22,196 nucleotides of DNA from a virus (IMGVR_UViG_3300026549_000035:160918-183113), one strand, 5' to 3'; positions 1,598 through 16,707 are shown, counted from the stretch's first letter. The notes: a model not told the origin generated them from the sequence alone. Made by a program: numbers and translations.

Positions 1598-1620
1598 AGC
1601 CTATACTTCCTTTTTTATTT

Positions 1621-1649
1621 TCTATATATATTATAATATATTTTTTATA
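1621..1649 (-). promoter_or_regulatory. Class I (early-type) promoter, copy 1: TTGATT-17-TATAAT inside a ~55-bp conserved AT box
   Basis: Minus strand reads TTGATT, then a 17-nt spacer, then TATAAT, about 25 nt before the RBS and ATG of 563..1597. The same box recurs 8 times in the window. Confidence 0.7.
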
Positions 1650-1777
1650 AAAAATCAAGTAAGGCTTTCTGCTGTATTTTCGTTTATTGTTTTTTGTTTT
1701 TCAGCATAAGACTATAATTGATTAATAAAATTAATTGTTGAATTACAAAAATTACAATTTGAAATGCCTTGACATTT

Positions 1778-2491
1778 CTATCCACAAGTCATTCGTCTAT
1801 GCGCAAAAAACTTTTTATCATCATTTTCATAAGGAATAACTTCAAATCCTCTATTATCTACATCTACTCCAAAATTAGTTAATAAAGTATTTAAATTACC
1901 TGGCCAATTTTTATCTTCAGCATAGATTCGATATAGAGCATATTCTTTTTTAATACTATCTTTTGAATCAAACTCGAAATGATCAATATAAGCACTATAA
2001 GTTTCAATGTCTTCTGGACGAATATATGTTCCACAAATTCCATTTTCACGAGGCATATATCCATTATAACATTTATTTACTACTGCGCGCAATTCAATAT
2101 CTGGACCACAGATATTTTTTACTTTTGATAAATCAAAGAAAATTGGAGCATCTAAAAGTATTTCATTAACGCCAAGCGCAATTAAACTTCGTAACTCCCA
2201 AAAAGTTGCAGCTGGATAAGACCAAAAAGCTTTATATCCTAAATCTTTGGCTGTTTCAATCATACGAGTATCTTCGACTGCAATAACAATATTTAAAATG
2301 TCTTTATATTTCTCTATTTGATCCCAATTAACAATTTGATCTTTTGGAAGATAAATAACTATCTCACCTTTGCAAGTCCAATCATCAGAAACAAAATCAG
2401 CCAATCTTTCAATATCATTATAATTTACTCGAATTTCTTCTGCTTTTTTTAAAACTGTTAAAGGCTATCTACTTGATAACATAAATTTCAA
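1778..2491 (-). CDS. hypothetical protein. The likely true start is TTG 2491..2489 with an AAAGGAGTG SD 7 nt upstream, and there is an in-frame TAG at 2467..2465. The track ORF 1778..2404 is the part after that TAG.
   Basis: The frame is open from TTG 2491 through the TAG to 1778. The track start TTG 2404 has no SD, whereas the 2491 start has a strong one. The terminal codon at 1780..1778 is also TAG and is followed by TAA 12 codons later. Confidence 0.5.
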
Positions 2492-2509
2492 AATAATCAC
2501 TCCTTTTTA

Positions 2510-2545
2510 TTATTATTATAACAAAAAAAAATAGTAAAAGCAACT
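2510..2545 (-). promoter_or_regulatory. Promoter for 1778..2491: TTGCTT-17-TATAAT
   Basis: Minus strand reads TTGCTT TTACTATTTTTTTTTGT TATAAT. A GC-rich perfect palindrome GCTCGCGCCGCGAGC (2576..2590) sits just upstream of the -35. Confidence 0.5.
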
Positions 2546-2605
2546 TTTATTTAAGTTTACGGTCTCTTGTGGTCGCTCGCGCCGCGAGCAGTTAAAAAGA
2601 TTATT

Positions 2606-2651
2606 ATAAAAAAGCCTCTGAAGAAAAACTTCAGAGGCTTTTATTTTTTTT
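2606..2651. terminator. Bidirectional rho-independent terminator
   Basis: GCCTCTGAAG, loop AAAAA, CTTCAGAGGC, with an A-run on one side and a T-run on the other. It sits directly after the stop of 2660..3058. Confidence 0.8.
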
Positions 2652-2659
2652 ACTAAGGA

Positions 2660-3058
2660 TTAACCAACAAGGCGGTAGCCGACTAAACGACGAGTCTTAT
2701 TATCTTCGCCCTTAATAGTAACTTCTCCCTTTTCAACACCAGAACCTTCAGTCTTATACAGAGCGTTCAATCTATAAGAAACTTTGGATAGGGTTACATC
2801 TTCGCCCTCAATTCGAGCCGCAATAGTAGCAATGCTCTCGAATTCATCAGTAAGAGCTTCCTTAACGGCTTCAGCAAGGGCATCTCCCTCAGCCTTCTTT
2901 GCAGCGGCAGCTTCCTTTGCTTTAGCAGCCTTACGGTCAAGCTGACCAATTTTCTTTTCAGCCCATTCCGCAATTACATCAGGATCAAGATCCTCAAGAG
3001 TTCCCTCTGCAATAGCGGCGTAAATCTTGCGGTCAGTAAGTTTTTCAGTGTTAGTCAT
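2660..3058 (-). CDS. Ala/Glu/Lys-rich acidic protein. It is compositionally GC-richer than its surroundings and is a paralog of 15697..16131.
   Basis: The ORF ends in TAA. ATG 3058 has an AAGGAG SD 10 nt upstream, and the track start TTG 3067 is too close to the SD. It shares the segment KAAKAKEAAAAKKAEGDALAEAVKEAL with KAAEAAKKAEAEAKAK of 15697..16131. It has its own class I promoter and strong terminator. Confidence 0.65.
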   Translation of the reverse strand: MTNTEKLTDRKIYAAIAEGTLEDLDPDVIAEWAEKKIGQLDRKAAKAKEAAAAKKAEGDALAEAVKEALTDEFESIATIAARIEGEDVTLSKVSYRLNALYKTEGSGVEKGEVTIKGEDNKTRRLVGYRLVG

Positions 3059-3129
3059 AATTTTCAATCTCCTTGATTAAAATATTTTTTATTATTTTTA
3101 TAAGATTTCTTTCTTTATCTTACATATAT

Positions 3130-3158
3130 ATTATATATTATTTTTTTTTAAAAATCAA
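3130..3158 (-). promoter_or_regulatory. Class I promoter, copy 2
   Basis: aatcaa at 3153..3158 and attata at 3130..3135 on the plus strand, which read TTGATT-17-TATAAT on the minus strand. Confidence 0.65.
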
Positions 3159-3168
3159 TAAAGATTTT

Positions 3169-4866
3169 TTATGAAAAATCATCTAAGTTTATTGTTCTAA
3201 GTGTTTTTTGAAAATTCTGGATAAATGATTCTTTAATTTTAAGAGGTTTGAAATCCTTAATTCGATGGAAAGGAACGATATATTCACTACACCACCAACT
3301 ATAATACGTATCGTGATAATAAGAAAGAATTTCATCTACACCCTTTTTAAAAACCTTAGAAGCACAGTTTTCACAAATTGTCTTAACAACAGGATTATCT
3401 GCTTCATTTTTTATGATTGGAGTTTGAGTAGAAATAACTTCGCCTTCATCATTCTTCTTATAAAGAGTTTCTCCAATAACAAATTTTATCGCTTCGACAT
3501 CACCCTCATCATCGCAATGGTTTAAGTCAATAATCCTACCACAGATATCACATTCGGGTAAATTTTCATAACAATATGAACAATATTCTCTATTATTAAA
3601 TATTACAAGTTCATTACTATTTGCGATAACGTCACTACAACTACAGCAAACATGATGCTCTACGCAATTAAAGCAAGCTAAATCTGAAGACTCCTCAAAA
3701 TCTTCTTCACCACCGCATATAACGCATTCGCTTACTCCAGAATAATCAAAAATAACATCTTCATCACAATTTTCAACGAGAATTGCTGAATATCTATTTC
3801 CACTATAAAAATCATTATACATAGCAGGACCGCAAGACATATTGATATTTAAATAAGAATTTACAGTTTCATCTTCAATGGTTTCTCCAACTCTCCATCT
3901 AGAAATTTTAGAAGAAAATTTTGTTTGATCAGTAGTAAATAACTCTGCGAGCCATTTTAAAGCTAAATCTTCGAGTTCAGAATTCCAGTAGGGGTATCCC
4001 TTGATACCAAAAACTCCATAATCATTTACAATCATGAACTCTCGCCACTTTTTAGAATTCCATCTTTCCCTAGGATGCTCAGGATCAACATAAAATTCCA
4101 TATGATTAGAATTTGATTCAAGATAAGCAACTATAACATAAGGAGAATTCATCATTTCAACTACTCCTCTACGATACTCGCCATCTATCCAATGCATACA
4201 TGAGTGCCAGTCATTTTCATTCCAACTTGCGGTCATATAATCAAGAGGGTGAATACTTAAACATAAATTTGCAGATAAAAAAGACTCGTTCATAATTTGA
4301 GATTGTTTAATACGAAAATCTTCAAACTGCTGTTCCAGACCTGCCGCTCTAGCAAGACGACCCATAGCTTTCATAATTTTACAGCCATGAACAAGCTTAA
4401 ATACTTTATTATCAGGCAGATTTAATGCTAAAGTTTCTCCCTGATATCTATTGGAAATTAATGGATCAATATCAAACATATAAAATCTTAACTCTGATTC
4501 AATAGAAGTCCATTCCCAACTATATTCTGAGGAGCTAGGCTGCCACTTAGCATAAATATCATTATTTTTTGCAAGCATATCAAGAATTCTCTCTCTTAAA
4601 TAGAGAATGGGGCTATAAGAAATGAATTTTTTCATTTTCTCATGGAGCTCTTCTTCGCTTACCTTAATTTCTACCTTCTTTTTAAGGATAAGTTGATTAC
4701 CGAAAACTTTAGACATTTTTAAAGCTTTAGCTTTTTCCCAATAAGTTAAAAAGGAATCACAACTTACGAAATCTTCATGCACAAAATCTCCTAAATCATC
4801 AGTGCCGTATTTACGAACGGCATTAATTAATGATTTTTCTTCGCTACTAAGTTGCTCAATAAACAT
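3169..4866 (-). CDS. large ORFan with an HPLDY...SC motif domain and a C-terminal multi-CxxC zinc-ribbon region
   Basis: 565 aa ending in TAA, with an AAGGAG SD upstream of ATG 4866. The tail has CVICGG, CFNC, CCSC, CSYC, CDICG and CENC. It is a paralog of the partial gene at 1..546. Confidence 0.7.
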   Translation of the reverse strand: MFIEQLSSEEKSLINAVRKYGTDDLGDFVHEDFVSCDSFLTYWEKAKALKMSKVFGNQLILKKKVEIKVSEEELHEKMKKFISYSPILYLRERILDMLAKNNDIYAKWQPSSSEYSWEWTSIESELRFYMFDIDPLISNRYQGETLALNLPDNKVFKLVHGCKIMKAMGRLARAAGLEQQFEDFRIKQSQIMNESFLSANLCLSIHPLDYMTASWNENDWHSCMHWIDGEYRRGVVEMMNSPYVIVAYLESNSNHMEFYVDPEHPRERWNSKKWREFMIVNDYGVFGIKGYPYWNSELEDLALKWLAELFTTDQTKFSSKISRWRVGETIEDETVNSYLNINMSCGPAMYNDFYSGNRYSAILVENCDEDVIFDYSGVSECVICGGEEDFEESSDLACFNCVEHHVCCSCSDVIANSNELVIFNNREYCSYCYENLPECDICGRIIDLNHCDDEGDVEAIKFVIGETLYKKNDEGEVISTQTPIIKNEADNPVVKTICENCASKVFKKGVDEILSYYHDTYYSWWCSEYIVPFHRIKDFKPLKIKESFIQNFQKTLRTINLDDFS

Positions 4867-4901
4867 ATAGTAATCTTTCTCCTTTTTTATTTTCTATATA
4901 T

Positions 4902-4930
4902 ATTATATAATATTTTTTTATAAAAATCAA
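4902..4930 (-). promoter_or_regulatory. Class I promoter, copy 3
   Basis: Minus strand reads TTGATT (4930..4925), a 17-nt spacer, then TATAAT (4907..4902). The box sequence is conserved. Confidence 0.7.
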
Positions 4931-4962
4931 TTAAGCCTCTTAGAAGCTATAAAATAAAACTT

Positions 4963-5505
4963 TTAGTTAATCATGAATAAGTATAAAAACATTTGACAAC
5001 GACCAGAAGTTTTATTGTTAAATACTATATCTGTCGCTTGTTCTTCTGTTATCCACATAGGGTATATATCTTCATCTTTAGTTGTATTTTTATTAGTTAT
5101 CTCACCTGCAGCAGTGCAAACGACTGTTGCAACAGCTTCATTAGACATTCCCGCAGACTGATAAGCAGGAGGTAAAATATCTAAAATATCTTGTATTTCT
5201 AATCCTGTCTCTTCAAACAGTTCTCTTTTTGCAGTAGTTATAATATCTTCGTTATGTTCACGTAATCCCGCAGGAAAAGCGTAAATATAATCATTAACAG
5301 GAACTCGCCACTCTTTAATAACAAGAACTTTCTTAAAATCAGGAGATAAGGCAATAATGTCTACAGCATCAGCTCCTACCTTATTTATATCTTTAAGTTT
5401 TTGACGAGAAGCTACTTCATAATTACGTCCACTTTCTAATTTAAAATTATAAAAATGTAAAAATTTTCCATCATAAACAGGAACAATTTCTTTTATTTTA
5501 TCCAT
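4963..5505 (-). CDS. Nudix hydrolase (ADP-ribose/NDP-sugar pyrophosphatase-like)
   Basis: The Nudix box GLREHNEDIITTAKRELFEETGL matches Gx5Ex7REUxEExGU. The ORF is 180 aa ending in TAA, with an AAGAGGT SD 8 nt before ATG 5505. Confidence 0.8.
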   Translation of the reverse strand: MDKIKEIVPVYDGKFLHFYNFKLESGRNYEVASRQKLKDINKVGADAVDIIALSPDFKKVLVIKEWRVPVNDYIYAFPAGLREHNEDIITTAKRELFEETGLEIQDILDILPPAYQSAGMSNEAVATVVCTAAGEITNKNTTKDEDIYPMWITEEQATDIVFNNKTSGRCQMFLYLFMIN

Positions 5506-5537
5506 TCTTTTTTACCTCTTTATCATTTTCTATATAT

Positions 5538-5566
5538 ATTATATCATAATTTTTTATAAAAATAAA
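5538..5566 (-). promoter_or_regulatory. Class I promoter variant, copy 4: TTTATT-17-TGATATAAT with an extended -10
   Basis: It shares the ttttctatatatattatatcataattttttataaaaat box. The -35 is degenerate but a TGn extended -10 is present. Confidence 0.5.
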
Positions 5567-5596
5567 AGGGAGAACTTTTTGTTCTCCCTTTTTATA
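5562..5596. terminator. Bidirectional rho-independent terminator
   Basis: AAAAGGGAGAAC, loop TTTTT, GTTCTCCCTTTTT. It lies directly downstream of the stop of 5611..6879. Confidence 0.8.
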
Positions 5597-5610
5597 TATT
5601 TATTAAAAAT

Positions 5611-6879
5611 TTAAGTAGTTACGGGGGTATCGGAAATCTTGTCGGTATTTAAATTTTTCCCAAAAAGTGGGGTCGCTGTCGTAGAATTCATCATTAAAAG
5701 AAAAGGGAGCATATCATTTGCCTTATCTCCCTTTTGGCTCAAAAGGAAATACATCATCATAGGATTAGAAGCAAAGTTATTATTGCCTCCCATAGAATTA
5801 AACAAAAGCAGAGTCATTGGATCAAAATCCTTATTATCATCTGCCAGCATCAAGAAAGGCAACATATTGCCGAAAGGATTATCAGGGTCAGCGGTCAAAC
5901 TACTAAAATCGACCAAGGCGCAAACCTTAGTGAAGAAGTTAAAACCAAAAGGACTCTTAACAGGCAGAATATCTACAACAGTAGAGTTTGCATAATTCAA
6001 AACAGAAATAGTTCCGTTAGAATTAATAGAACGGACAAAAACAGGCTGATTACCATGGATAAGAATATCACCAATAGCAATAGCATTTAATGCTACTGGC
6101 ATCTTATAAATGAGTTTAGAAATATCGAAGTTGATAATATCAACATTAAAAACTTCACCAGTCTTAGAGTTATATGATACCCAGCCATTAGCGTTAGTAG
6201 CAACTGCGATACCATAAGGACTCATACGGAACTGCTTATCAGAAACAGGACCAAAATCGAATTTAATCAAATCGTTAGTATTCATATCATCTTTCTCCTT
6301 ATCATTATTAGTTTTAGTTATATATCCATCAGTATCTAATTGATTAAGAATGTTGTTATACAATGTAGTAGTATTAGAATTATACCATTCTTGGATATAA
6401 TTATTTATTGAATTATCTATTGAAGTTGTTGCATAATTGCTTGAAGAAATAGGAGCGGTTCGATAAGTTATTGTGTCTTTAGCTGAATCTAAATTGCTAA
6501 TAAAATATCCACCTTGACTTACTTCAACTGTATTTGTTTCAAGATCAAAAGGAAGATAATCTTTCCAATAATTTATTAAAAAAGCTGCTAAAGAATTACT
6601 AGATGTTATACCGCATTTCCTTGAACAAGTATAAGAATATAAAGTTTCTCCAAGTGCTTTTTTCCAAGTATCATATTCTTTTATTTGAAGTTTTTCTAGA
6701 TTGTATTCCGGAAAAGAGTGGATAACAACAAAATTAGCTGATTCAGAAACTTTTAATTTTCTCCATTCTCCATAGCCAATGCGCGTATATCCTAAAGTTT
6801 CAGTAGCTTCTTGAAAATCTTTTAAAAGTTGTTTTGAACTAACAAGAATGGCTTCTTTATCTCTTTTTATAATTGCCAC
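5611..6879 (-). CDS. hypothetical protein, 422 aa, possibly structural
   Basis: Long ORF ending in TAA. It contains the internal repeat MLPFLMLADD / MLPFLLMMNS. No domain recognised. Confidence 0.65.
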   Translation of the reverse strand: MAIIKRDKEAILVSSKQLLKDFQEATETLGYTRIGYGEWRKLKVSESANFVVIHSFPEYNLEKLQIKEYDTWKKALGETLYSYTCSRKCGITSSNSLAAFLINYWKDYLPFDLETNTVEVSQGGYFISNLDSAKDTITYRTAPISSSNYATTSIDNSINNYIQEWYNSNTTTLYNNILNQLDTDGYITKTNNDKEKDDMNTNDLIKFDFGPVSDKQFRMSPYGIAVATNANGWVSYNSKTGEVFNVDIINFDISKLIYKMPVALNAIAIGDILIHGNQPVFVRSINSNGTISVLNYANSTVVDILPVKSPFGFNFFTKVCALVDFSSLTADPDNPFGNMLPFLMLADDNKDFDPMTLLLFNSMGGNNNFASNPMMMYFLLSQKGDKANDMLPFLLMMNSTTATPLFGKNLNTDKISDTPVTT

Positions 6880-6924
6880 TTATTTTCTCCTTTCTTTATT
6901 TTCTATATATATTATATCATAATT

Positions 6925-6962
6925 TTTTATAAAAATAAAGGAGAGAATTTTAAACTCTCCTT
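6925..6962 (-). terminator. Rho-independent terminator for 6961..7695
   Basis: GGAGAG, loop AATTTTAAA, CTCTCC. A T-rich tail follows on the minus strand. Confidence 0.6.
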
Positions 6963-7695: not shown

Positions 7696-7710
7696 TCCTT
7701 TCTTTATTGT

Positions 7711-8274: not shown

Positions 8275-8302
8275 ATTTATCGCCTTTGCTCCTTTTTTTA
8301 TT

Positions 8303-8587: not shown

Positions 8588-8622
8588 TCTTTAAAAACCT
8601 CTTTTTATTTTTTTCTATATAT

Positions 8623-8651
8623 ATTATAATATATATTTTTATAAAAATCAA
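8623..8651 (-). promoter_or_regulatory. Class I promoter, copy 5
   Basis: Minus strand reads TTGATT (8651..8646), a 17-nt spacer, then TATAAT (8628..8623). Confidence 0.7.
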
Positions 8652-8678
8652 TTGAAGATTATAATTCTTCCTTTAAGA

Positions 8679-9662: not shown

Positions 9663-9673
9663 CTTTTACCCCC

Positions 9674-10186: not shown

Positions 10187-10200
10187 AATAAAACCTCCTT

Positions 10201-10940: not shown

Positions 10941-10957
10941 ATTATTCTCCTTTGTAA

Positions 10958-11128
10958 TTATTTAATTAAGCAGGTGATAAGACCGCTTAAAATTAAAAAT
11001 GCAAAAATTAAAAAAAGAAAAGTAATAATCCAAAGTACCCAATCTTTTCCCATTACTGCAAGCTCTCCAATAAAATAGGCTGCGACAAAAGAAACAATCA
11101 TTAAAATAGATAAAAAAATTATTAACAT
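10958..11128 (-). CDS. small hydrophobic protein with 2 TM helices, about 56 aa, from ATG 11128
   Basis: MLIIFLSILMIVSFVAAYFIGELAVMGKDWVLWIITFLFLIFAFLILSGLITCLIK. The track start at 11182 would overlap the upstream gene by 50 nt. ATG 11128 lies 4 nt after the upstream TAA and has a weak GAGGT SD. Confidence 0.45.
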   Translation of the reverse strand: MLIIFLSILMIVSFVAAYFIGELAVMGKDWVLWIITFLFLIFAFLILSGLITCLIK

Positions 11129-11132
11129 TATT

Positions 11133-11531
11133 TTAACGTACCTCGAGATTCTTAATGGTATTTTCAAGGGTATTGAGTTCATTTTTTAGCTTTGTTATTT
11201 TTTTAGTAATAGAAATCCAAAGCTCTTTTTTAGAATCGTAATACCAATATCCAATTTCTTTTGGAGTACTACAATTAGAAAGATATCCCATTTCGTCTGC
11301 AAGTTTTATAGCTGCTTCATTACCTACAAAAAGATAATAACAATCTAATAAACCTTGAGTAGCTTTTCCTTCAAAAAGAGTCTCGTCTCCAATGATATTA
11401 TAAGCAAAATCATAAAAGCGCAATTGACCTTTTGCAGCTTCGCGTTTTTTAATATCTTCATATTGAACGCAATCATCATAATCGTCAAAAACAGTGCCAT
11501 CGTCTGCCATATAAGTGATTAACTCTTTCAT
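11133..11531 (-). CDS. hypothetical protein, 132 aa
   Basis: ORF ending in TAA. The C-terminus is coiled-coil-like (KKITKLKNELNTLENTIKNLE). Confidence 0.55.
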   Translation of the reverse strand: MKELITYMADDGTVFDDYDDCVQYEDIKKREAAKGQLRFYDFAYNIIGDETLFEGKATQGLLDCYYLFVGNEAAIKLADEMGYLSNCSTPKEIGYWYYDSKKELWISITKKITKLKNELNTLENTIKNLEVR

Positions 11532-11537
11532 TACTAT

Positions 11538-11912
11538 TTATCTCCTTTTTATAGTAGTTAGTGTTCCGTTAAAAATTTCTCTTTTTGATTCGACAACTTT
11601 ATATGCATCATCATCATCATCAAGTAAATCGTAAATTTCTTCCCACAAATAATTAATAAGAGTAGTTGAAGTGTTAAATAAAGTATTGGTTATGATAATA
11701 TTGTTTAAGTTGTTTTTTGCAAAGTAAAGAACATTTTTATTGACTGCCGCAACAATAGTTTCTTCGTTGATTAATTCTGACCATGGGATATCAGTATTTT
11801 TTTGCATATAGGTTTTAGATTGGTCATTAGGAAAATGTTGTAAGATATATTGTATATCTATTTGATTTTCAATCACTTGTGTTTGCGTTTGGCGCAATTT
11901 AATATATATCAT
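11538..11912 (-). CDS. hypothetical protein, 124 aa
   Basis: ORF ending in TAA. RBS AAAAAAAGGA upstream. Confidence 0.55.
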   Translation of the reverse strand: MIYIKLRQTQTQVIENQIDIQYILQHFPNDQSKTYMQKNTDIPWSELINEETIVAAVNKNVLYFAKNNLNNIIITNTLFNTSTTLINYLWEEIYDLLDDDDDAYKVVESKREIFNGTLTTIKRR

Positions 11913-11921
11913 GATTTTTAT

Positions 11922-12272
11922 TTATCCTTTTTTTTGACAAAGTTCAAAATATGTATCTCCAATTTTTTGTGGTGTTGATTTATACTGACAGTTATGTTCA
12001 TAATCAAGGCAAATATAAGCATTTTTATTATTAGAGCCTTTTATAATACCACATTCCATACAAGTAGACTTTTTATCCTAGTTATCCCAAGAAGAAGTCC
12101 ATTCTTCAACAAGTTCTTTTAAAAGTTCTTGTTCTAATTCAGTTAAACAATAAAAGGGAACCTGTGCCCAAACTTCCTTGTTTTTATTTTCAGATACATT
12201 TTTTTCTATACTATAACAATCATAATTATCATTAAATAAGAGTCTATATTGACCTAAAGTAATAACTTTCAT
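11922..12272 (-). CDS. hypothetical protein. The 64-aa ORF ends at TAG 12080..12078, and the frame stays open for 51 more Cys-containing codons to TAA 11924..11922.
   Basis: The extension reads IKKSTCMECGIIKGSNNKNAYICLDYEHNCQYKSTPQKIGDTYFELCQKKG, which is protein-like and fills the whole intergenic gap up to the next gene's RBS. An alternative is a separate mini-ORF from ATG 12059 with a poor RBS. Confidence 0.45.
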
Positions 12273-12276
12273 ATTA

Positions 12277-12486
12277 TCATTCCTTTTTCTCAGGTTTTCC
12301 CATATTCCATGATTGTCTTGATATAATATTTATCTCACCGTCTAATTTTTCTGAATATTTAAGTTTATTTTTAAAAGCAATAGGTAATTTTTCTTGTAAC
12401 TCTTCTTCAGTTTCCGCAAAAATATATAATTCTTTTATTTGATTTCCCCGAACGGGGGCTTCCGCAAGTATTTGATACAAATTCAT
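12277..12486 (-). CDS. hypothetical protein, 69 aa
   Basis: Strong AAAAAAAAGGAGAGG SD. Ends in TGA. Confidence 0.55.
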   Translation of the reverse strand: MNLYQILAEAPVRGNQIKELYIFAETEEELQEKLPIAFKNKLKYSEKLDGEINIISRQSWNMGKPEKKE

Positions 12487-12586
12487 TTTTTTACCTCTCC
12501 TTTTTTTTCAAATTCTAATCTACTAAATTCAAAAATAGAAATTGTTTAAGCTGACTTATAGGCATATATATTTTTTCTTTTTATCT

Positions 12587-12865
12587 TTATAAATTTTTTT
12601 TTACTTTTTTATATGAATCATAAATATCTAAATCTATTTCTGTTGAGTAATTACTTTTTATTGTTTTATAAATATGTTTTATATAAAGTAAAGTATCTTC
12701 AATATCAATAAAATAAATTTTTGCGGATCCAGACATACTGCCACGTATTTTTACTTGATAACCGTATTTTTTTTCTTTTAACTTAACATATTCTAATCCA
12801 TATCCTTCAACAGCGCCGAAGCCATATGAAAAATGATCTCTTATTAGTCCTAATGTGATTATCAT
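12587..12865 (-). CDS. hypothetical protein, 92 aa
   Basis: AAAGGAAT SD. Ends in TAA. Confidence 0.55.
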   Translation of the reverse strand: MIITLGLIRDHFSYGFGAVEGYGLEYVKLKEKKYGYQVKIRGSMSGSAKIYFIDIEDTLLYIKHIYKTIKSNYSTEIDLDIYDSYKKVKKNL

Positions 12866-12894
12866 ATTATTATTCCTTTTTTGAAAGTTATTTA

Positions 12895-13251
12895 TTATTT
12901 AAAAAATTCAATTTTTTCATATTCTTTATATTTTTTATCAAAATTTTCCTTTACTTCTGGAAAATCGTTAGATATAATAATAAGTATATCGCTTGGAAAA
13001 AAATTAATAATAATATCTTGGTTATTTTTTATAAGGTAGCCGCAATGCACGCCTCGTAGATTTATAATATCTTCATATTCAGTTGGAGAAACTGTAAATT
13101 TAATTTCTCCTATTTCTTTTTCATTACGTTGTAAATTGATAATTAAATTAATTCTTATTCTTTCCCAAAGAGCTTGTTTTAATTCATCATGATATTTTTT
13201 ATTTTCAAGATTTTTATCCCAAAGGATTAGCGGTTTTGGTCTATAATTCAT
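12895..13251 (-). CDS. hypothetical protein, 118 aa; first gene of a long minus-strand operon
   Basis: Class I promoter copy 6 lies immediately upstream. Ends in TAA. Confidence 0.55.
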   Translation of the reverse strand: MNYRPKPLILWDKNLENKKYHDELKQALWERIRINLIINLQRNEKEIGEIKFTVSPTEYEDIINLRGVHCGYLIKNNQDIIINFFPSDILIIISNDFPEVKENFDKKYKEYEKIEFFK

Positions 13252-13288
13252 TATTTTATTTTTCCTTTTTATTATTTTTTCTATATAT

Positions 13289-13317
13289 ATTATAATATAT
13301 TTTTATTAAAAAATCAA
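13289..13317 (-). promoter_or_regulatory. Class I promoter, copy 6; divergent from the plus-strand promoter of the RHH operon
   Basis: Minus strand reads TTGATT (13317..13312), a 17-nt spacer, then TATAAT (13294..13289). Confidence 0.7.
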
Positions 13318-13345
13318 TTGAGAATTTTTTTGTTAAAAAATTTTT

Positions 13346-13373
13346 TTACATTGTAGGACAAAGTTATATAAAT
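13346..13373 (+). promoter_or_regulatory. Candidate plus-strand promoter (TTTACA-16-TATAAA) for the RHH-led operon
   Basis: tttacattgtaggacaaagttatataaa. It contains the half-operator-like TTACATTGTAG. Confidence 0.35.
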
Positions 13374-13418
13374 TATTACAAAGTATTTTTATATATACAT
13401 GAAAGGAAGTGAAAGAAA

Positions 13419-13550
13419 TTGACTACTATTTCAGTTAGAATTGATGACACAGAAAAAAAGAAATTAGAAGAATTTGCCAGAAAAGAAGATTTAACTATGT
13501 CACAAATTATTCGTAAAGCTTTAAAAGAGTATTTAAAAAATAATACATAA
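13419..13550 (+). CDS. ribbon-helix-helix (CopG/Arc/MetJ-like) DNA-binding protein, 43 aa, TTG start
   Basis: The translation TTISVRIDDTEKKKLEEFARKEDLTMSQIIRKALKEYLKNNT has an N-terminal beta-strand followed by two helices. An AAAGGAAG SD is 9 nt before the TTG. It is absent from the ORF track because it is short and uses a TTG start. Confidence 0.55.
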   Translation: MTTISVRIDDTEKKKLEEFARKEDLTMSQIIRKALKEYLKNNT

Positions 13551-13567
13551 GGAGGCTCATAAGCAAA

Positions 13568-13747
13568 ATGCCAATTAACAAAATAATTTATTCAAAAAGA
13601 GTAATGGAGTCTTTAGTTGCTATGGGTAATATACCTCTTAAATCTATGCCTAATCCTTATAAGCCAGAGTTTTAGTGTTGGATTTTTGAAGTTAATGAAA
13701 AATTTTAGAAAGATATAGATAAAATATTAGGTGATAAATATGGTTGA
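13568..13747 (+). CDS. small protein. ATG 13568 sits after a TAAGGAGG SD, 35 codons run to TAG 13673..13675, the frame continues through a second TAG at 13706..13708 to TGA 13745..13747, and it overlaps the next start.
   Basis: MPINKIIYSKRVMESLVAMGNIPLKSMPNPYKPEF then TAG, CWIFEVNEKF then TAG, KDIDKILGDKYG then stop. The read-through text is protein-like and ends in an ATGnnTGA-style overlap with the downstream gene. Confidence 0.4.
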
Positions 13748-14111
13748 GCGCACTTTTATATTTTATCCTGATTGGCTTAATTTTATTGAACGTATTAGTA
13801 ATGAAAAAGATAAATTAGATTTATATGATATTATTGCTTCTTATGGGTGTCATGGAGAATATTCAAATAAAAATCCTATGATGACTGCTGTTTTTGAATC
13901 TTTAATTAAACCTAAAATAGATATTGCGCAAGGTCGTTATGAAGAAAAAATTACTATGGGAAAGAATTATGGACGTAAAAAAATAGTAGATGATAATATG
14001 GTCAAGTAGTTGGCGCAAGAAGGCATGCGCGCAAAAGATATTGCTGAGAAATTAAACGTGTCGGTTGATACGGTTTATCATAGTGATGGATGGAAAAATA
14101 GAAATTTGTAA
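13740..14111 (+). CDS. two-domain DNA-binding protein. An 89-aa N-terminal domain ends at an in-frame TAG (14007..14009) and is followed by a 33-codon sigma70-region-4-like HTH. It is possibly an ArpU/RinA-like regulator or an initiator-like protein.
   Basis: ATG 13740 sits after a TAGGTGAT SD. The frame after the TAG is contiguous and reads LAQEGMRAKDIAEKLNVSVDTVYHSDGWKNRNL, a classic HTH. The internal ATG 14025 is only 1 nt after its AAGAAGG and cannot initiate well. Confidence 0.5.
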
Positions 14112-14262
14112 AAATAGATGTGATTTTTTACAAAAAATATTTGTAAAAATAGATATTGTTTTTACAAAAAATATTTGTAAAAATACAAATTTTATTTGTA
14201 AAAAACAAATTTTTATTTGTAATTTGTAATTTGCTCTATTATCTATTACAAATTACAAATTT
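14101..14262. repeat. Array of TTGTAA/TTACAA half-sites in direct and inverted arrangement, including two 36-bp tandem units TTTGTAAAAATAGAT...TTTTTACAAAAAATA
   Basis: tttgtaaaaatagat appears twice. ttttacaaaaaatatttgtaaaaata appears twice. Also present are tttgtaaaaaacaaat, tttgtaatttgtaattt and attacaaattacaaat. Confidence 0.8.
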
Positions 14263-14281
14263 TCCACTGACGTGGAAAATA
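14262..14281. promoter_or_regulatory. Palindrome TTTTCCAC-N4-GTGGAAAA, a candidate operator
   Basis: ttttccactgacgtggaaaa has 8-bp inverted arms. Confidence 0.4.
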
Positions 14282-14285
14282 TGTT

Positions 14286-14341
14286 AAAGAGTATTTTAAA
14301 AATCCTAGTCGCTTCGCTCCTAGGCTTTTATAAAATACTCT
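14286..14341. repeat. Long imperfect inverted repeat (stem-loop with about 20 bp of stem) followed by a GGGGCTTTTT tract. It may act as a terminator or processing site upstream of 14372..14617.
   Basis: AGAGTATTTTAAAAATCCTAG, loop tcgcttcgctc, CTAGGCTTTTATAAAATACTCT. Confidence 0.5.
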
Positions 14342-14371
14342 AGGGGCTTTTTATGAAAGGAGAAATGAAAA

Positions 14372-14617
14372 ATGAATGATAATATTTTTTCAACAGAAAA
14401 AAATCGTGAAATAAGTGAGCTTCAAGAAAGAATAAAAAGAGATTGGATTTTAAGAGAAACAGACGAAGAAGATGAATATGAGTTAGAAATAGATGAAGAA
14501 GATTTAGAAAATGTTATAGAAGATATTCTTGAAAGACGAGAGAGAAAAAATAGAGAACTCTTAAAAGAGATAGTAGATTTATTAGAAGATATAAAGATAT
14601 ATCTGAGAAGATTATAG
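14372..14617 (+). CDS. highly acidic coiled-coil-like protein, 81 aa. It ends at TAG and is followed 2 codons later by TAA.
   Basis: SD AAAGGAGAAATG. The translation is Glu/Asp-rich: ...EEDEYELEIDEEDLENVIEDILERRERKNRELL. Confidence 0.5.
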   Translation: MNDNIFSTEKNREISELQERIKRDWILRETDEEDEYELEIDEEDLENVIEDILERRERKNRELLKEIVDLLEDIKIYLRRL

Positions 14618-14640
14618 TTTAAATAAAAGGAGGAATTTTT

Positions 14641-14886
14641 ATGGCAGGAATCCCATCAAAAATTGAACCTACTATGAAAGGGAAAAAGTTACCTTTAATA
14701 TAGAGAGTAAAATATCATGAATTAGATAGTTTTCTTAATAGAAAAGATATTGTTAGAGGAGAACTATTTATAGATGAGAACACTGGGGATTTATATGTAG
14801 CAGAAAAAGGCGATGTAGAAACTTATTGGTTAAGATTAGGTAGAACAGATTTAGAAAAAGAAGAACTGGAACAAAACAAAAATCCA
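14641..14886 (+). CDS. hypothetical protein, 81 codons, with an in-frame TAG at 14701..14703. The 61 codons downstream have no ATG, GTG or TTG.
   Basis: AAGGAGG SD 8 nt before ATG 14641. The translation is MAGIPSKIEPTMKGKKLPLI then TAG, then RVKYHELDSFLNRKDIVRGELFIDENTGDLYVAEKGDVETYWLRLGRTDLEKEELEQNKNPFLN then TGA. Confidence 0.5.
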
Positions 14887-15013: not shown

Positions 15014-15412
15014 ATGAATTATTATTATGAGTCAGGTCATATAGGAAATTATAAAGGACATCAAGTTTGGATAATTGATTATAGTAATTTTTATAGAGAA
15101 GATACTATTGATAGTGATGATATTTGGGCAGTAAGAACAGGACCAAATCAAAGTATTAAATTAGTATTAAAAGGATATGAATTTGGTCAAATGAGTCATA
15201 GTGGAGAAGTGTCTTTATATAGAAAAGAGAAGCCTTTTAACTTTTACCATAGAAGAGAAGAAAAGGAAGTTAAAAAAACTCCGGTAGTAGTAGAAGTAAA
15301 AGAGGAGCCTTTAGAAATTAATTATAGTGATTATACTCAACCAGTAGATATGTTTTTTAAGAATCTAAAAGAGTGGTGGAAAGATTTAGATAAGGAGCTT
15401 AAATCAATATAA
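15014..15412 (+). CDS. hypothetical protein, 132 aa. The second ATG, with a GAGGAAGG SD, is preferred over the track start at 14990.
   Basis: MNYYYESGHIGNYKGHQVW... Ends in TAA. Confidence 0.5.
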   Translation: MNYYYESGHIGNYKGHQVWIIDYSNFYREDTIDSDDIWAVRTGPNQSIKLVLKGYEFGQMSHSGEVSLYRKEKPFNFYHRREEKEVKKTPVVVEVKEEPLEINYSDYTQPVDMFFKNLKEWWKDLDKELKSI

Positions 15413-15459
15413 GATAGGTATTCTACCTATTTTATATAGGGTACAGGTTTTATATAGAA

Positions 15460-15575
15460 ATAATTAAAAACTGTGAAGATTATAGTTTTATAGTAAAAAT
15501 TAAGAAATTATATTGAAAATTGTAAAAATTGCGGTTTTATATTAAAAATTGCAATTCTATGTAGAAAATTGTGGT
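15460..15575. repeat. Iteron-like AAAATTG(Y) repeats phased at about 10 and 20 bp
   Basis: aaaattg copies begin at 15516, 15525, 15545 and 15565, with variant copies upstream. Confidence 0.6.
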
Positions 15576-15579
15576 TTAG

Positions 15580-15620
15580 TGGTGGCCCCGTTCGGTGTTA
15601 ATTGTAACACCATTTTATCG
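15580..15620 (+). other. CCCCGTTCGGTG motif (inverted copy of the island motif) plus the GGTGTTA-ATTG-TAACACC hairpin with a T-tract
   Basis: ggtggccccgttcggtgttaattgtaacaccattttat. Confidence 0.5.
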
Positions 15621-15640
15621 TAATCGTCATCGTTATCATA

Positions 15641-15689
15641 ATAAATAAAAAACCCTTGAGCAACTCGCTCAAGGGTTTTTCTTATTTTC
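15641..15689. terminator. Bidirectional rho-independent terminator
   Basis: AAAAAACCCTTGAGC, loop AACTC, GCTCAAGGGTTTTTCTTATTTT. Confidence 0.85.
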
Positions 15690-15696
15690 ACTTTTA

Positions 15697-16131
15697 TTAT
15701 CTAACCATTCGATTAAGGAAATCCTCAATAGGGTCGACTGCATGAACTGCACCAGCCTTTTGGCTCTTATTTTTCAATGCTTCGAGCTCCTGGCTTAGCT
15801 CAATATACTTAGTGAGAAAAGGAAGAGATTCATCGATAACTTTAACGATCTCTTCTGGATCAGCCTCTTCGATAGCATCAAGAATCTCATCATCAACCTC
15901 ATAAACTGCCAAAAGATCTTCAAATGCAAAGAGAACTGCTTCTACAGCCGCTATCTTCTGGGCAAAAAGATTATCCTGCTTTGCTTTTGCTTCAGCTTCT
16001 GCTTTTTTGGCAGCTTCCGCAGCCTTATGCTTCTCATTTGCTTCGTTCAAGCTCTTGGTAAGTGATGCAGCAATATCTTCCGCCGACTCACCATTCTGTA
16101 GACGCTCAAGAATCTCATTTGTATAATCCAT
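15697..16131 (-). CDS. acidic Ala/Glu/Lys-rich protein, 144 aa; paralog of 2660..3058
   Basis: GC-richer than its surroundings. Class I promoter copy 7 is immediately upstream and a strong terminator lies downstream. Ends in TAA. Confidence 0.65.
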   Translation of the reverse strand: MDYTNEILERLQNGESAEDIAASLTKSLNEANEKHKAAEAAKKAEAEAKAKQDNLFAQKIAAVEAVLFAFEDLLAVYEVDDEILDAIEEADPEEIVKVIDESLPFLTKYIELSQELEALKNKSQKAGAVHAVDPIEDFLNRMVR

Positions 16132-16166
16132 TTATAAAAACCTCTTTTCTTTTATTTTCTATATAT

Positions 16167-16195
16167 ATTATATCAAAAATTTTTATAAAAATCAA
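16167..16195 (-). promoter_or_regulatory. Class I promoter, copy 7
   Basis: Minus strand reads TTGATT (16195..16190), a 17-nt spacer, then TATAAT (16172..16167). Confidence 0.7.
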
Positions 16196-16199
16196 ATTT

Positions 16200-16705
16200 A
16201 GGCTCGTAAAGCCACGAAAATTTTTCTGTGGAAAGAAATTCATGAGAACTTCCTTTTGGATAGCTGGGCTGATAAAAATCAGCCTTTGTAAATACGCCAT
16301 AGCAAAGATGAGAACTATGCGTTTTTCCCCGAACGGACATCCGAACGGGAATGGACAGGAACGAAAGAGCTGCGGAAAATTTTTGGTTTTTTTTAATATT
16401 ATACCAAAAAATTTTTTGAAAGTCAAACAAGTAATTATAAAAACAAACACCGAGCGGGGCCGGCAAGTAACTTTCAAATGAGATAAAAGCCATATGGGGC
16501 AAACACCGAACGGGGGCCCGCCCGGGGGGGCAGAGTGGTAAAAAAAAATTTCCCATTTCGGGAAAATGAGATGCCATATGGGGGGCCGCACTTGCCCTCG
16601 AAAAATTTGCATATGGGGTTAGGTGCGGGAATTCGGGCGACGTCTATTGTCGTCGGCCCGATGATTTTATCGCTTTAAGCCACTAAAGTGCCCGGGCGCA
16701 AACCC
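16200..16705. other. GC-rich non-coding island with reiterated CACCGAACGGGG and CATATGGGG motifs and several hairpins. The overlapping track ORFs here are judged spurious.
   Basis: caccgagcgggg at 16448, caccgaacgggg at 16504, ccccgaacgg and ccgaacggg near 16326..16347. catatgggg appears three times near 16491, 16575 and 16610. A bulged hairpin GGGCGACG...CGTCGGCCC is also present. Confidence 0.6.
16538..16568 (-). terminator. Rho-independent terminator for the minus-strand class II unit arrays
   Basis: Minus strand reads ATTTTCCCGAAATGGGAAAT followed by TTTTTTTTT. Confidence 0.7.
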
Positions 16706-16707
16706 TA

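What the first reader, a model, noticed from the sequence alone, without database searches (positions are those of the whole stretch)
1606..16200. Eight copies of a ~55-bp class I promoter box (TTTTCTATATATATTATA...TTTTATAAAAATCAA)
Class I copies read TTGATT-17-TATAAT at 1621..1649, 3130..3158, 4902..4930, 8623..8651, 13289..13317 and 16167..16195. Two variant copies carrying TGATATAAT are at 5538..5566 and about 6905..6935. All drive minus-strand genes and several sit just after a terminator. The extreme conservation goes beyond -35/-10 to roughly 55 bp, which suggests an extended UP-element or factor site such as a T5/T4-early style strong promoter, or recombinational homogenisation. Three of these promoters drive the two GC-rich A/E/K-rich paralogs and the Nudix gene.
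Basis: seen in the sequence. Interest (0 to 1): 0.55.

Follow-up and report, generated by a model that had tools for sequence, protein, structure and literature searches.

The report
Repeated strong phage promoter-leader cassettes
The eight repeats are near-identical copies of a strong host-type (sigma-70/sigma-A) promoter fused to a short unstructured leader, placed in front of non-structural genes of an uncultivated ~180-kb gut/rumen phage. This is an ordinary kind of phage element, notable mainly because the same extended box recurs in many other uncultivated phages.

Summary
Eight minus-strand copies of a 43-nt box, TTGATT-tttataaaaaaatat(t/g)a-TATAAT-ATATATAGAAAATA, score 47-57 bits on a matrix built from those same eight copies. 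No other site in the window exceeds 18 bits. Three more copies lie just outside the window on the same contig.

Conservation runs from the -35 hexamer to about +8 and then into a purine-rich, unstructured leader. A Shine-Dalgarno site and start codon follow 31-37 nt after the -10 in 7 of 8 copies. There is no conserved UP element.

Five related rumen phages share only 37-42% protein identity with this one, yet carry 6-10 similar boxes per 17.5 kb, on the gene strand. At one orthologous site the box is 82% identical while the upstream flank is 36%. An independent search anchored only on the -35 and spacer recovers the same downstream ATATATA(G/T)AA in 28 other viral loci. So selection, not only within-genome homogenisation, maintains the box.

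Best reading: early or pre-replicative promoters read by host primary-sigma RNA polymerase, analogous to T4/T5 early promoters and T4-type PeSL cassettes. No start site is mapped.

The window's right-hand 6 kb is joined to the rest exactly inside the eighth box, so it is either a recombinant or an assembly chimera.

Verdict: new member of a known kind, of modest interest.

The parts
1616..1658 (-). Class I box copy 1 (-35 TTGATT at 1653-1658, -10 TATAAT at 1630-1635). It drives the 344-aa M28/M20-like peptidase gene, 563-1597.
   Evidence: (52.3 bits)
3116..3158 (-). Class I box copy 2. This is the variant with initial transcribed sequence GTAAGAT and a 71-nt leader. It drives the A/E/K-rich 132-aa gene, 2660-3058.
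   Evidence: (47.3 bits)
3101..3122 (-). Predicted 5'-terminal hairpin of the copy-2 transcript (TAAGAT..ATCTTA). Orthologues in L360 and L361 have GTAAGG..CCTTAC, which is one compensatory pair.
4888..4930 (-). Class I box copy 3. It drives the 565-aa gene, 3169-4866.
   Evidence: (57.0 bits)
5524..5566 (-). Class I box copy 4 (-35 TTTATT, extended -10 TGATATAAT). It drives the Nudix gene, 4963-5505.
   Evidence: (53.9 bits)
5567..5589 (-). Intrinsic-terminator hairpin (AGGGAGAAC..GTTCTCCCT). Its U-tract is the -35 region of copy 4.
   Evidence: (-17.7 kcal/mol)
6897..6939 (-). Class I box copy 5 (-35 TTTATT, TGATATAAT). It drives the 422-aa gene, 5611-6879.
   Evidence: (55.4 bits)
6940..6960 (-). 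Terminator hairpin (GGAGAG..CTCTCC) abutting copy 5.
   Evidence: (-12.6 kcal/mol)
8609..8651 (-). Class I box copy 6. It drives the 94-aa gene 8303-8587, followed by the isochorismatase-family gene 7711-8274 and the 244-aa gene 6961-7695.
   Evidence: (54.0 bits)
13275..13317 (-). Class I box copy 7. It heads a run of about 12 small genes, from 13251 down to 9384.
   Evidence: (50.9 bits)
16153..16195 (-). Class I box copy 8 (TTGATT plus TGATATAAT). It drives the A/E/K-rich 144-aa gene, 15697-16131. It is also the point where the window switches from one ENA contig to another.
   Evidence: (54.0 bits)

Best explanation
Each box is a complete expression cassette for host RNA polymerase carrying the primary sigma factor (sigma-A in a low-GC Gram-positive host).

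The proposed parts are:
- a -35 hexamer, TTGATT;
- a 17-bp A/T-only spacer made of a T-tract followed by an A-tract, sometimes ending in the extended -10 TG;
- a perfect -10, TATAAT;
- an easily melted 6-nt discriminator, ATATAT;
- a purine start, with A or G about 7 nt after the -10;
- a 24-30-nt purine-rich, C-poor, unstructured leader ending in (A)GGAG, followed by the start codon.

The phage places one cassette in front of nearly every gene or short operon of its non-structural (early or pre-replicative, accessory) region. Some cassettes directly abut the terminator of the preceding gene, so each unit is expressed strongly and independently as soon as the DNA enters the cell.

What is shown: sequence anatomy, copy number, strand and position, and conservation across phages.

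For: - The motif is statistically real and forms a discrete class.
- Geometry is fixed. The spacer is 17 bp in all 8 copies, and the start codon lies 31-37 nt after the -10 in 7 of 8, preceded by GGAG-like sites.
- Leaders fold at 0 to -2.2 kcal/mol, against -5.3 +/- 4.1 for control 50-mers from the same strand.
- Leader composition over 49 boxes is A 66, T 16, G 15 and C 3 %.
- All 8 copies, plus 3 more on the same contig just outside the window, are on the gene strand.
- Two copies whose -35 is replaced by a terminator U-tract carry the TG extended -10.
- In five related phages (37-42% identity in the 565-aa protein), a scan with the window-derived matrix at a threshold of 22 bits finds 6-10 matching boxes per 17.5 kb. 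Forty are on the gene strand and 3, all weak, are on the other strand. Thirty-eight of these pass 27 bits and give the same consensus.
- At the orthologous site the box is 82% identical, the upstream flank 36%, and the region downstream of the box (leader and coding) about 50%.
- In IMG/VR, 117 of 138 exact TATAATATATATAGAAAA sites have TTG exactly 17 bp upstream, and 116 have a Shine-Dalgarno-like site downstream.
- A search anchored only on TTGATTTTTATAAAAA finds TATAAT at the right spacing in 39 of 126 hits. Of those, 24 match the downstream pattern AWWTAYRKAWR, against 2 of 87 among the other hits.
- The cultured distant relative Enterococcus phage H1 has 51 TTGNNN-17-TATAAT sites, nearly all outside its structural module (34.5-90.5 kb), with its own conserved downstream block.
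- The best match among cultured phages is the region that the literature calls early promoter PE1 of a lactococcal Ceduovirus (PMC7150918).
- T4 early promoters likewise show consensus beyond the canonical elements (PMC2988021).
Against: - No transcription start site, RNA-seq or in vitro transcription data exist for this uncultivated phage. The host is unknown.
- A second, differently extended promoter family occurs in the same window (16957-21499). This shows that sigma-A recognition alone does not dictate the spacer and initial transcribed sequence, so a class-specific factor may also read the box.
- The apparent compensation between a weak -35 and an extended -10 is not significant over 49 boxes (counts 35/7/4/3).
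- Early timing is inferred only from gene content and by analogy with phage H1 and T4.
- In-frame TAG codons occur in genes of one class I operon. If recoding needs phage products, that would not fit 'immediate early' expression.
Confidence: 0.8

Rival explanations
1. The boxes are primarily recombination modules, that is PeSL-like mobile promoter/terminator cassettes. Their similarity is kept by gene conversion, and they mediate insertion, deletion and swapping of gene cassettes. Promoter activity coexists with this role. This reading complements the best explanation rather than excluding it.
For: - The window equals ENA contig k141_718151 upstream of the -10 of copy 8 and contig k141_7166 downstream of it. 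Each ENA contig has a different partner on the other side.
- A Logan contig also breaks inside this box.
- Gene content between the conserved 422-aa and 565-aa genes varies among relatives: nothing, Nudix alone, or about 3.5 kb plus Nudix. Matching boxes lie between these two genes in the relatives.
- Several copies are identical over about 40 nt.
- Terminator-promoter composites are present.
- PeSLs in T4-type phages behave this way (PMC2839356 and PMC4122927).
Against: - The junction could be an assembly chimera at a short repeat.
- At about 40% protein identity, breakpoints in the relatives cannot be resolved to the box.
- Conservation across deeply diverged phages and across unrelated contigs points to selection on function rather than to conversion.
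Confidence: 0.3
2. The extended conservation (T/A-tract spacer, ATATATA(G/T)AA) is the binding site of a class-specific phage protein. This could be a repressor that shuts early transcription off, an activator, or an injected polymerase modifier. Alternatively the boxes are read by a phage-encoded sigma factor or RNA polymerase with sigma-A-like specificity.
For: - Two promoter classes with different extended consensus coexist in the window, and each is widespread in other phages.
- The spacer core TTTTTATAAAAA is palindromic in most copies.
- An HTH_7/DUF6291 gene lies on the opposite strand nearby.
Against: - Palindromy is not maintained in relatives, where spacers such as tttcaaaaaaaatattt and aaaataaaaaaataata occur.
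- The box occurs on very diverse viral contigs of 5-400 kb. A similar architecture is seen in Enterococcus and Lactococcus phages. Both observations fit a host-level reader better.
- No phage RNA polymerase or sigma gene was seen in the 29 kb examined, or in the annotated first 130 kb of phage H1, although that annotation is poor.
Confidence: 0.15
3. The -10-like repeats just downstream of the -10 (TATAAT-ATATAT-AG) act as a sigma-dependent promoter-proximal pause or loading site for an antiterminator, in the style of lambda PR'/Q.
For: Overlapping TATAAT-like hexamers lie immediately downstream, and this segment is conserved across phages. Sigma-dependent pausing at -10-like transcribed sequences is an established mechanism (PMC9191641, listed).
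Against: - The AT-rich block lies in the discriminator, before the likely start site, not at the +1 to +6 or +10 region of the transcript.
- Eleven or more copies in front of single genes, each followed by a nearby Shine-Dalgarno site, is unlike a single late-operon antitermination site.
- No Q-like gene was identified.
Confidence: 0.04
4. The repeats are chance similarity of low-complexity AT-rich intergenic DNA.
For: The genome has about 30% G+C. The generic promoter scan finds about as many weak sites as in shuffles, 107 against 98.7.
Against: The 43-nt matrix separates 8 sites at 47 bits or more from everything else at under 18 bits, and the shuffle maximum is 16.6. Strand, spacing and position are fixed, and the box is conserved across genomes.
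Confidence: 0.01

Closest known systems
Bacteriophage T4 early promoters (Pe) and the PeSL (promoter-early stem-loop) cassettes of T4-type phages
   Same: - Many near-identical host-sigma promoters with consensus beyond the -35, TGn and -10 elements (PMC2988021).
- They sit before non-essential or ORFan genes in plastic regions.
- They are often fused to a terminator stem-loop and end in a Shine-Dalgarno site and start codon.
- They are implicated as recombination junctions (PMC2839356 and PMC4122927).
- Here, 2 of 8 copies are fused to terminators, gene content between boxes varies among relatives, and a contig junction lies inside one box.
   Different: - The host type is different. It is inferred to be low-GC Gram-positive, from the strong GGAG Shine-Dalgarno sites and from Enterococcus and Lactococcus phages as the nearest cultured analogues.
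- The phage lineage is unrelated to T4.
- There is no conserved UP element.
- A stem-loop is not a constant component.
- The extra conservation lies in the spacer, discriminator and initial transcribed sequence.
- Mini-circles and recombination are untested.
Coliphage T5 early promoters such as PN25 and P25/P26 (recalled from Gentz & Bujard 1985 and the Hsu laboratory's work on initial transcribed sequences; not checked here)
   Same: They are very strong sigma-70 promoters with A/T-rich spacers and a conserved purine-rich initial transcribed region followed by a Shine-Dalgarno site. That initial region influences promoter escape.
   Different: The sequence blocks differ, and the T5 promoters were defined functionally in E. 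coli. Nothing here has been measured.
Early promoters PE1/PE2 of lactococcal Ceduovirus (c2-type) phages
   Same: This is the best DNA match to the box among 50,697 cultured phage records: TTGATT-N16-TGT-TATAAT-AGATATATAGAAAAT in the ori/early intergenic region of phage bIBBp6/4. The literature describes this region as flanked by early promoters PE1 and PE2 (PMC7150918).
   Different: There are only a few copies per 22-kb genome. PE1 makes a non-coding transcript implicated in replication, whereas the window's copies drive protein genes. However, the variant copy on contig k141_718151 is followed by at least 458 nt with no ORF.
Promoters of Enterococcus phage H1 and its EF1/EF5/VRE9 relatives (~140 kb), the nearest cultured relatives by protein
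   Same: The peptidase is 39% identical. There are 51 TTGNNN-17-TATAAT sites with T/A-rich spacers, frequent TGn and a conserved post--10 block (TAATTATAAAGTTAAATAAGGAGG). Nearly all lie in the non-structural parts of the genome.
   Different: The downstream block has a different sequence. Phage H1 also has a class in which a terminator hairpin encloses the -35. No experimental mapping is known to me.

Membership tests
Primary-sigma (sigma-70/sigma-A) promoter | -35 hexamer resembling TTGACA | tested here: met
   TTGATT in 6 of 8 copies and TTTATT in 2 of 8. TTG is present at this position in 42 of 49 boxes of the clade.
Primary-sigma (sigma-70/sigma-A) promoter | -10 hexamer TATAAT at 17 +/- 1 bp from the -35, with an optional TGn | tested here: met
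   Perfect TATAAT with a 17-bp spacer in 8 of 8 copies, and TGn in 3 of 8.
Primary-sigma (sigma-70/sigma-A) promoter | Intergenic position, oriented toward a downstream gene at a short, regular distance | tested here: met
   All copies are on the gene strand. The start codon lies 31-37 nt after the -10 in 7 of 8 copies.
Primary-sigma (sigma-70/sigma-A) promoter | A mapped transcription start, and dependence on host holoenzyme | not testable with these tools
   There are no expression data. The phage is uncultivated, from a metagenome assembly.
UP-element-containing promoter | Conserved A/T-rich element at -40 to -60 | tested here: not met
   The upstream 43 columns are 36% identical among orthologues, against 82% in the box. 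Column conservation there is at background level.
PeSL cassettes (T4-type phages) | Repeated sigma-70-like early promoter ending in a Shine-Dalgarno site and start codon, concentrated before accessory or ORFan genes | tested here: met
PeSL cassettes (T4-type phages) | A stable stem-loop (terminator or attenuator) as a constituent of the motif | tested here: inconclusive
   Strong hairpins at 2 of 8 copies, weak ones at 3, and none at 3. Many relatives show ..CTCTCC immediately before the -35.
PeSL cassettes (T4-type phages) | Recombination between copies producing indels, replacements or mini-circles | tested here: inconclusive
   A contig-switch junction lies inside copy 8, and cassette content varies among relatives. 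Neither is proof, and an assembly chimera is possible.
PeSL cassettes (T4-type phages) | Carried by a T4-like myovirus of Gram-negative hosts | tested here: not met
   The closest cultured relatives by protein are Enterococcus phages. No DNA match to any cultured phage was found.
Single-subunit or phage-specific RNA polymerase promoter (T7-like, N4-like, phiKZ-like) | One conserved block spanning the start site without the -35/-10 geometry, together with a phage RNA polymerase gene | tested here: not met
   The canonical bipartite geometry is present. No RNA polymerase gene was seen in the 29 kb available.
Dyad-symmetric operator of a dimeric regulator | Palindrome conserved across copies and relatives | tested here: inconclusive
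   TTTTTATAAAAA is palindromic in most window copies, but the symmetry is lost in several relatives.
Known structured RNA family (Rfam) | Match at or above the gathering score | tested here: not met
   No Rfam hit in the window. The only hits were tRNAs on the flanking contig.

The most novel reading that the evidence does not exclude
The 43-nt box would be more than a good sigma-A promoter. It would be one of at least two extended promoter-leader 'archetypes': class I (..TATAAT-ATATATAGAAAA..) and class II (..TGnTATAAT-AAATACATCAAAG..). These would be shared almost letter for letter by many otherwise unrelated phages of herbivore and human gut Firmicutes. Two forces would maintain them. First, a reader beyond sigma, such as a conserved phage or host factor, or a clade-specific polymerase property acting on the spacer, discriminator and first transcribed bases. 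Second, the boxes would act as portable homologous-recombination junctions, a Gram-positive counterpart of PeSLs, through which gene cassettes are exchanged between phages.
Probability: 0.2. Interest if true: 0.55.

Novelty: new member of a known kind. Interest (0 to 1): 0.3.

Why it matters
- It gives a ready-made transcription-unit map for the early or accessory region of an uncultivated ~180-kb phage clade. One box precedes each gene or short operon.
- It supplies a compact, apparently very strong promoter-leader cassette that could be tested as an expression part for low-GC Gram-positive gut bacteria.
- Conservation of the spacer, discriminator and initial transcribed sequence across phages is a natural data set on what, beyond the -35 and -10, makes a promoter optimal for Firmicute RNA polymerase.
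- The junction inside a box warns that such repeats are places where phage genomes really recombine, or where assemblies become chimeric.
- None of this changes current understanding of phage transcription.

Tried and rejected
- **DNA search against cultured phages.** Megablast of the whole window against 50,697 phage records gave no match.
- **Rfam and tRNA scans of the window.** Nothing was found, so the box is not a known RNA element.
- **UP-element idea.** Rejected because there is no conservation upstream of the -35.
- **Compensation between a weak -35 and the TG extended -10.** It holds for the two window variants but is not significant over 49 boxes, so it is not used as an argument.
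- **Paralogy of the two A/E/K-rich proteins.** BLASTP gives no alignment.
- **Host assignment from bacterial genome hits.** Full boxes lie on short contigs of metagenome-assembled genomes, in front of small acidic ORFans. These are probably phage or prophage DNA, some binned into Treponema or Bacteroidetes genomes. Only 'gut/rumen, probably Firmicutes' can be said.
- **Scanning the rest of the 177.5-kb contig.** The tools returned only 6.8 kb beyond the window, which holds 3 more copies.
- **The non-coding tail after the variant box on k141_718151.** It has no Rfam family and no similarity to any fetched locus.
- **Exact-sequence literature search** and a search for the phage H1 accession found nothing. 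PMC194990, on c2 ori promoters, is not held.

Full report

A search for TTGATT-N17-TATAAT with up to 1 mismatch finds 14 sites against 1.33 expected, and none of 100 shuffles reaches 14. Repeat finding and alignment show that eight of them form one tight family on the minus strand. Their -35 to -10 coordinates are 1630-1658, 3130-3158, 4902-4930, 5538-5566, 6911-6939, 8623-8651, 13289-13317 and 16167-16195.

The other six are exact.

A 43-nt weight matrix covering -35 to +14 after the -10, built from these eight copies, scores them at 47-57 bits. No other site in the window on either strand reaches 18 bits, and 20 shuffles peak at 16.6. The class is therefore discrete, not the tail of AT-rich noise. 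For comparison, the generic promoter scan finds as many weak sites as in shuffled sequence, 107 against 98.7.

**2. Anatomy**

Column-by-column conservation begins exactly at the -35 hexamer. It runs through the A/T-only spacer (T-tract, then A-tract, then tat(t/g)a) and the perfect TATAAT. It continues for 12-14 nt (ATATATAGAAAAta) and fades into a purine-rich leader. There is no conservation upstream of the -35, so there is no conserved UP element.

The start codon lies 31-37 nt after the -10 in seven copies and 71 nt after it in the 3130 copy. It is preceded by GGAG, GAGG or AAGG.

Assuming a start about 7 nt after the -10, the first 50 transcribed nt fold at 0 to -2.2 kcal/mol. Control 50-mers from the same strand fold at -5.3 +/- 4.1. 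The exception is the 3130 copy, whose variant initial sequence (GTAAGAT...ATCTTAT) forms a 5'-terminal hairpin. Two orthologues keep that hairpin through a compensatory change, GTAAGG...CCTTAC.

Two copies, 5538 and 6911, directly abut strong terminator hairpins of -17.7 and -12.6 kcal/mol. The U-tract of each hairpin replaces the -35 G, giving TTTATT, and both copies carry TGATATAAT. The remaining copies have weak hairpins or none.

The genes served are non-structural:
- an M28/M20-like peptidase with zinc ribbons;
- a Nudix hydrolase;
- an isochorismatase-family protein;
- 565-, 422- and 244-aa proteins of unknown function;
- two A/E/K-rich proteins;
- a run of about 12 small ORFs.

The two A/E/K-rich proteins are not detectably homologous.

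**3. Where the window comes from**

Window 1-14866 is 100% identical to ENA metagenome contig ERZ27252065:k141_7166, which is 177,555 bp long. The 6.8 kb of that contig beyond the window start holds three further boxes on the same strand, one of them in front of a tRNA-Gly gene. That makes 11 boxes in about 29 kb, all co-oriented with the genes.

There is no nucleotide match to any of 50,697 cultured phages. The nearest cultured relatives by protein are the ~140-kb Enterococcus phages H1, EF1, EF5 and VRE9, at 39% identity for the peptidase and 23% for the 565-aa protein.

**4. The same box in other phages**

This is the key result, and it has three parts.

(a) Close relatives. Five IMG/VR contigs of 63-200 kb encode homologues of the 565-aa protein at 37-42% identity, with conserved local gene order. 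Scanning them with the window-derived matrix at a threshold of 22 bits finds 6-10 matching boxes per 17.5 kb in each. Forty are on the gene strand, against 3 weak ones on the other strand. The 38 that pass 27 bits give a consensus identical to the window's. In the orthologous intergenic region upstream of the 565-aa gene, mean pairwise identity is 82% in the box, 36% in the 43 columns upstream, and about 50% in the columns downstream of the box, which cover the leader and the start of the coding region.

(b) Exact-core search. Of 138 distinct sites, 117 have TTG exactly 17 bp upstream, with TTGATT the commonest hexamer. Seventy-six have TGn and 116 have a Shine-Dalgarno-like site within 35 nt.

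(c) Independent search. Because search (b) fixes the downstream part, I ran another search anchored only on the -35 and spacer, TTGATTTTTATAAAAA. Thirty-nine of 126 hits, from 28 loci, have TATAAT at the right spacing. In these the next ten positions read A-T-a-T-A-T-A-(T/G)-A-A at 32-38 of 39 each, apart from positions 3 and 8. The downstream pattern AWWTAYRKAWR occurs in 24 of 39 of them, against 2 of 87 among the non-promoter hits.

In bacterial genome collections the 18-mer is less often promoter-like, at 56 of 133 sites. Full boxes there sit on short contigs of rumen and gut metagenome-assembled genomes (Ruminococcus, Erysipelotrichaceae, 'Bacilli', Clostridia and some doubtful bins). They lie in front of small acidic ORFans, which suggests phage-type DNA.

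**5. Anchors in cultured phages**

Enterococcus phage H1, whose host is E. faecium, has 51 TTGNNN-N17-TATAAT sites in the 130 kb examined. Almost all lie in the non-structural regions, and its 34.5-90.5 kb structural and packaging module is essentially free of them. Many share a T/A-rich spacer, TGn and a conserved post--10 block, TAATTATAAAGTTAAATAAGGAGG.

The best nucleotide match to the box among cultured phages is in the ori/early intergenic region of lactococcal Ceduovirus phages: TTGATT-N16-(TGT)TATAAT-AGATATATAGAAAAT. In that group the non-coding ori region is described as flanked by the first two early promoters, PE1 and PE2 (PMC7150918).

These two anchors support the view that this architecture is read in low-GC Gram-positive hosts and belongs to the early, non-structural programme.

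**6. Most likely mechanism**

Host RNA polymerase with its primary sigma factor binds TTGATT and TATAAT, plus TG where present. It melts the AT-only discriminator and starts at the conserved purine, the A or G of ..ATATAT-AG.. or ..ATATAT-GT... It makes a short C-poor, unstructured leader that presents GGAG to the ribosome.

Placing such a cassette before nearly every gene, sometimes fused to the upstream terminator, gives strong and mutually insulated expression of accessory and pre-replicative genes immediately after infection.

This is the logic described for T4 early promoters, which "reveal additional regions of consensus" beyond UP, -35, TGn and -10 (PMC2988021). From memory, the same holds for T5 early promoters, whose purine-rich initial transcribed regions favour promoter escape.

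Shown here: sequence anatomy, discreteness of the class, strand and position, and purifying conservation across diverged phages.

Inferred: the identity of the polymerase, the start site, promoter strength and timing.

**7.

The 'T5/T4-early style strong promoter' reading is right in kind. The 'extended UP element' is wrong, because the extra conservation lies within and downstream of the core promoter.

'Recombinational homogenisation' cannot be the main cause, because the box survives where proteins have diverged to about 40% identity and recurs in many unrelated contigs.

Recombination at the boxes is nevertheless plausible. A three-way alignment shows that the window equals contig k141_718151 up to the -10 of the eighth box, and contig k141_7166 from there on. 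In the ENA assembly each of these contigs continues into different sequence. A Logan contig also ends inside this box.

This is either a true recombinant, which would parallel the PeSL-mediated modular shuffling of T4-type phages (PMC2839356 and PMC4122927), or a chimeric join at a repeat. Either way, the linkage of window 16196-22196 to the rest is not secure.

Gene content between the conserved 422-aa and 565-aa genes also varies among relatives, being nothing, Nudix alone, or about 3.5 kb plus Nudix. Matching boxes lie between these two genes in the relatives. This fits cassette-wise gain and loss.

**8. Remaining doubt: is sigma the only reader?**

The window's right part carries a second promoter family: TTGAC(A/T)-N14-TGn-TATAAT-AAATACATCAAAG... 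Its core is also widespread in IMG/VR. Of 119 sites, 94 have TTG at -35 and 90 have TGn.

Two different, separately conserved extended consensuses in one phage mean that sigma-A contacts alone do not fix the spacer and initial transcribed sequence. Class-specific regulation, by a phage factor or through differential escape, stability or translation, is not excluded.

The spacer palindrome TTTTTATAAAAA is not maintained in relatives. This argues against a classical dyad operator.

**9. Novelty and score**

This is a new member of a known kind: a family of phage early promoter-leader cassettes. Two aspects are mildly interesting. The extended box is conserved almost letter for letter across many uncultivated gut and rumen phages, and one box sits at a recombination or assembly junction.

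Interest is 0.3. The most novel reading not excluded is a reader beyond sigma combined with a PeSL-like exchange role in Gram-positive phages. I put that at about 0.2 probability.

Noticed in passing
window 16957-21499 (minus strand): -35 to -10 at 16957-16985, 17204-17232, 17864-17892, 18621-18649 and 19291-19319, plus copies near 20371-20399 and 21471-21499: A second promoter family: TTGAC(A/T)-N14-TGn-TATAAT-AAATACATCAAAG-AAAGGAG. It precedes small ORFs and is often preceded by a TTACAAnnTTGTAA palindrome and a CCCGGGC-rich hairpin. In some copies the spacer or the -35 is complementary to the initial transcribed sequence (TTGATGT..ACATCAA and TTGACT..AGTCAA). Its core 18-mer is also widespread in IMG/VR, with TTG at -35 in 94 of 119 sites.
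   Followed up: partly
window 16148-16195, compared with L123 5939-5989 and L368 480-530: The window is a join of two ENA contigs exactly inside the eighth box. Contig k141_7166 has a different upstream flank, and k141_718151 a different downstream flank. The join is either a real recombinant or an assembly chimera, so the linkage of 16196-22196 to the rest is unverified.
   Followed up: partly
window 1655-2482, 11922-12272 and 9384-9662 (all minus strand): In-frame TAG codons (3, 1 and 1 respectively) lie inside genes whose reading frames clearly continue. The ENA gene calls read through them. In the five relatives, the orthologues of the 275-aa gene have Gln or another in-frame stop at these and other positions. 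I did not check whether the relatives' in-frame stops are TAG. Only 2 of 34 window ORFs end in TAG, and both of those TAGs are among these internal, read-through codons. Together this suggests TAG-to-Gln recoding (genetic code 15) in this phage clade.
   Followed up: partly
L123 5976-6447 (outside the window; contig k141_718151): A variant class I box (TATAATATAAATATAGAAAAG) is followed by at least 458 nt with no ORF or Shine-Dalgarno site. This stretch contains a repeated GAGAG(C/A)NATACAGCAAA motif, a long-range closing stem and a U-tract. Folding z-score is -2.4. There is no Rfam hit and no similarity to other loci. It could be a promoter-driven non-coding RNA, comparable to the ori transcript PE1-T of c2-type phages.
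   Followed up: partly
window 22089-22185: A roughly 100-nt run that is almost pure T (poly-A on the gene strand), immediately upstream of the ORF 21795-22070. Contig k141_718151 ends inside it. It may be a homopolymer assembly artefact or an unusual leader.
   Followed up: no
window 14098-14192: Three tandem ~34-35-bp repeats, each containing the inverted repeat TTTGTAAAAA..TTTTTACAAA. They lie in the plus-strand gene cluster next to an HTH_7/DUF6291 gene. They could be operators or iterons (families D14 and D19).
   Followed up: no
window ~8742-9338 (plus strand): A 198-aa gene with a formate/nitrite transporter family hit (PF01226, precomputed in the ENA record) lies on the opposite strand between two class I transcription units. 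This is an unusual cargo gene for a phage.
   Followed up: no
L360 9740-9790, L361 9775-9815 and L362 9680-9700 (leader of the A/E/K-rich gene orthologues): A second leader hairpin just before the Shine-Dalgarno site shows compensatory changes: TGGCT..AGCCA, TGGCG..CGCCA and TTGCG..CGCAA. It is absent from the window's copy.
   Followed up: no
L367 12790-19020 (Enterococcus phage H1, record positions 92.8-99.0 kb): A series of promoters in which a terminator hairpin encloses the -35 hexamer, for example GGGG-TTGACA-ACCCC-TTTTTT..TATAAT. These are PeSL-like composites in a cultured Gram-positive phage.
   Followed up: no
L121 16551-21369 (outside the window): Five tRNA genes (Cys, Met, Trp, Leu and Gly) are interspersed with class I boxes downstream of the window on the same contig. 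No suppressor tRNA is among them.
   Followed up: no
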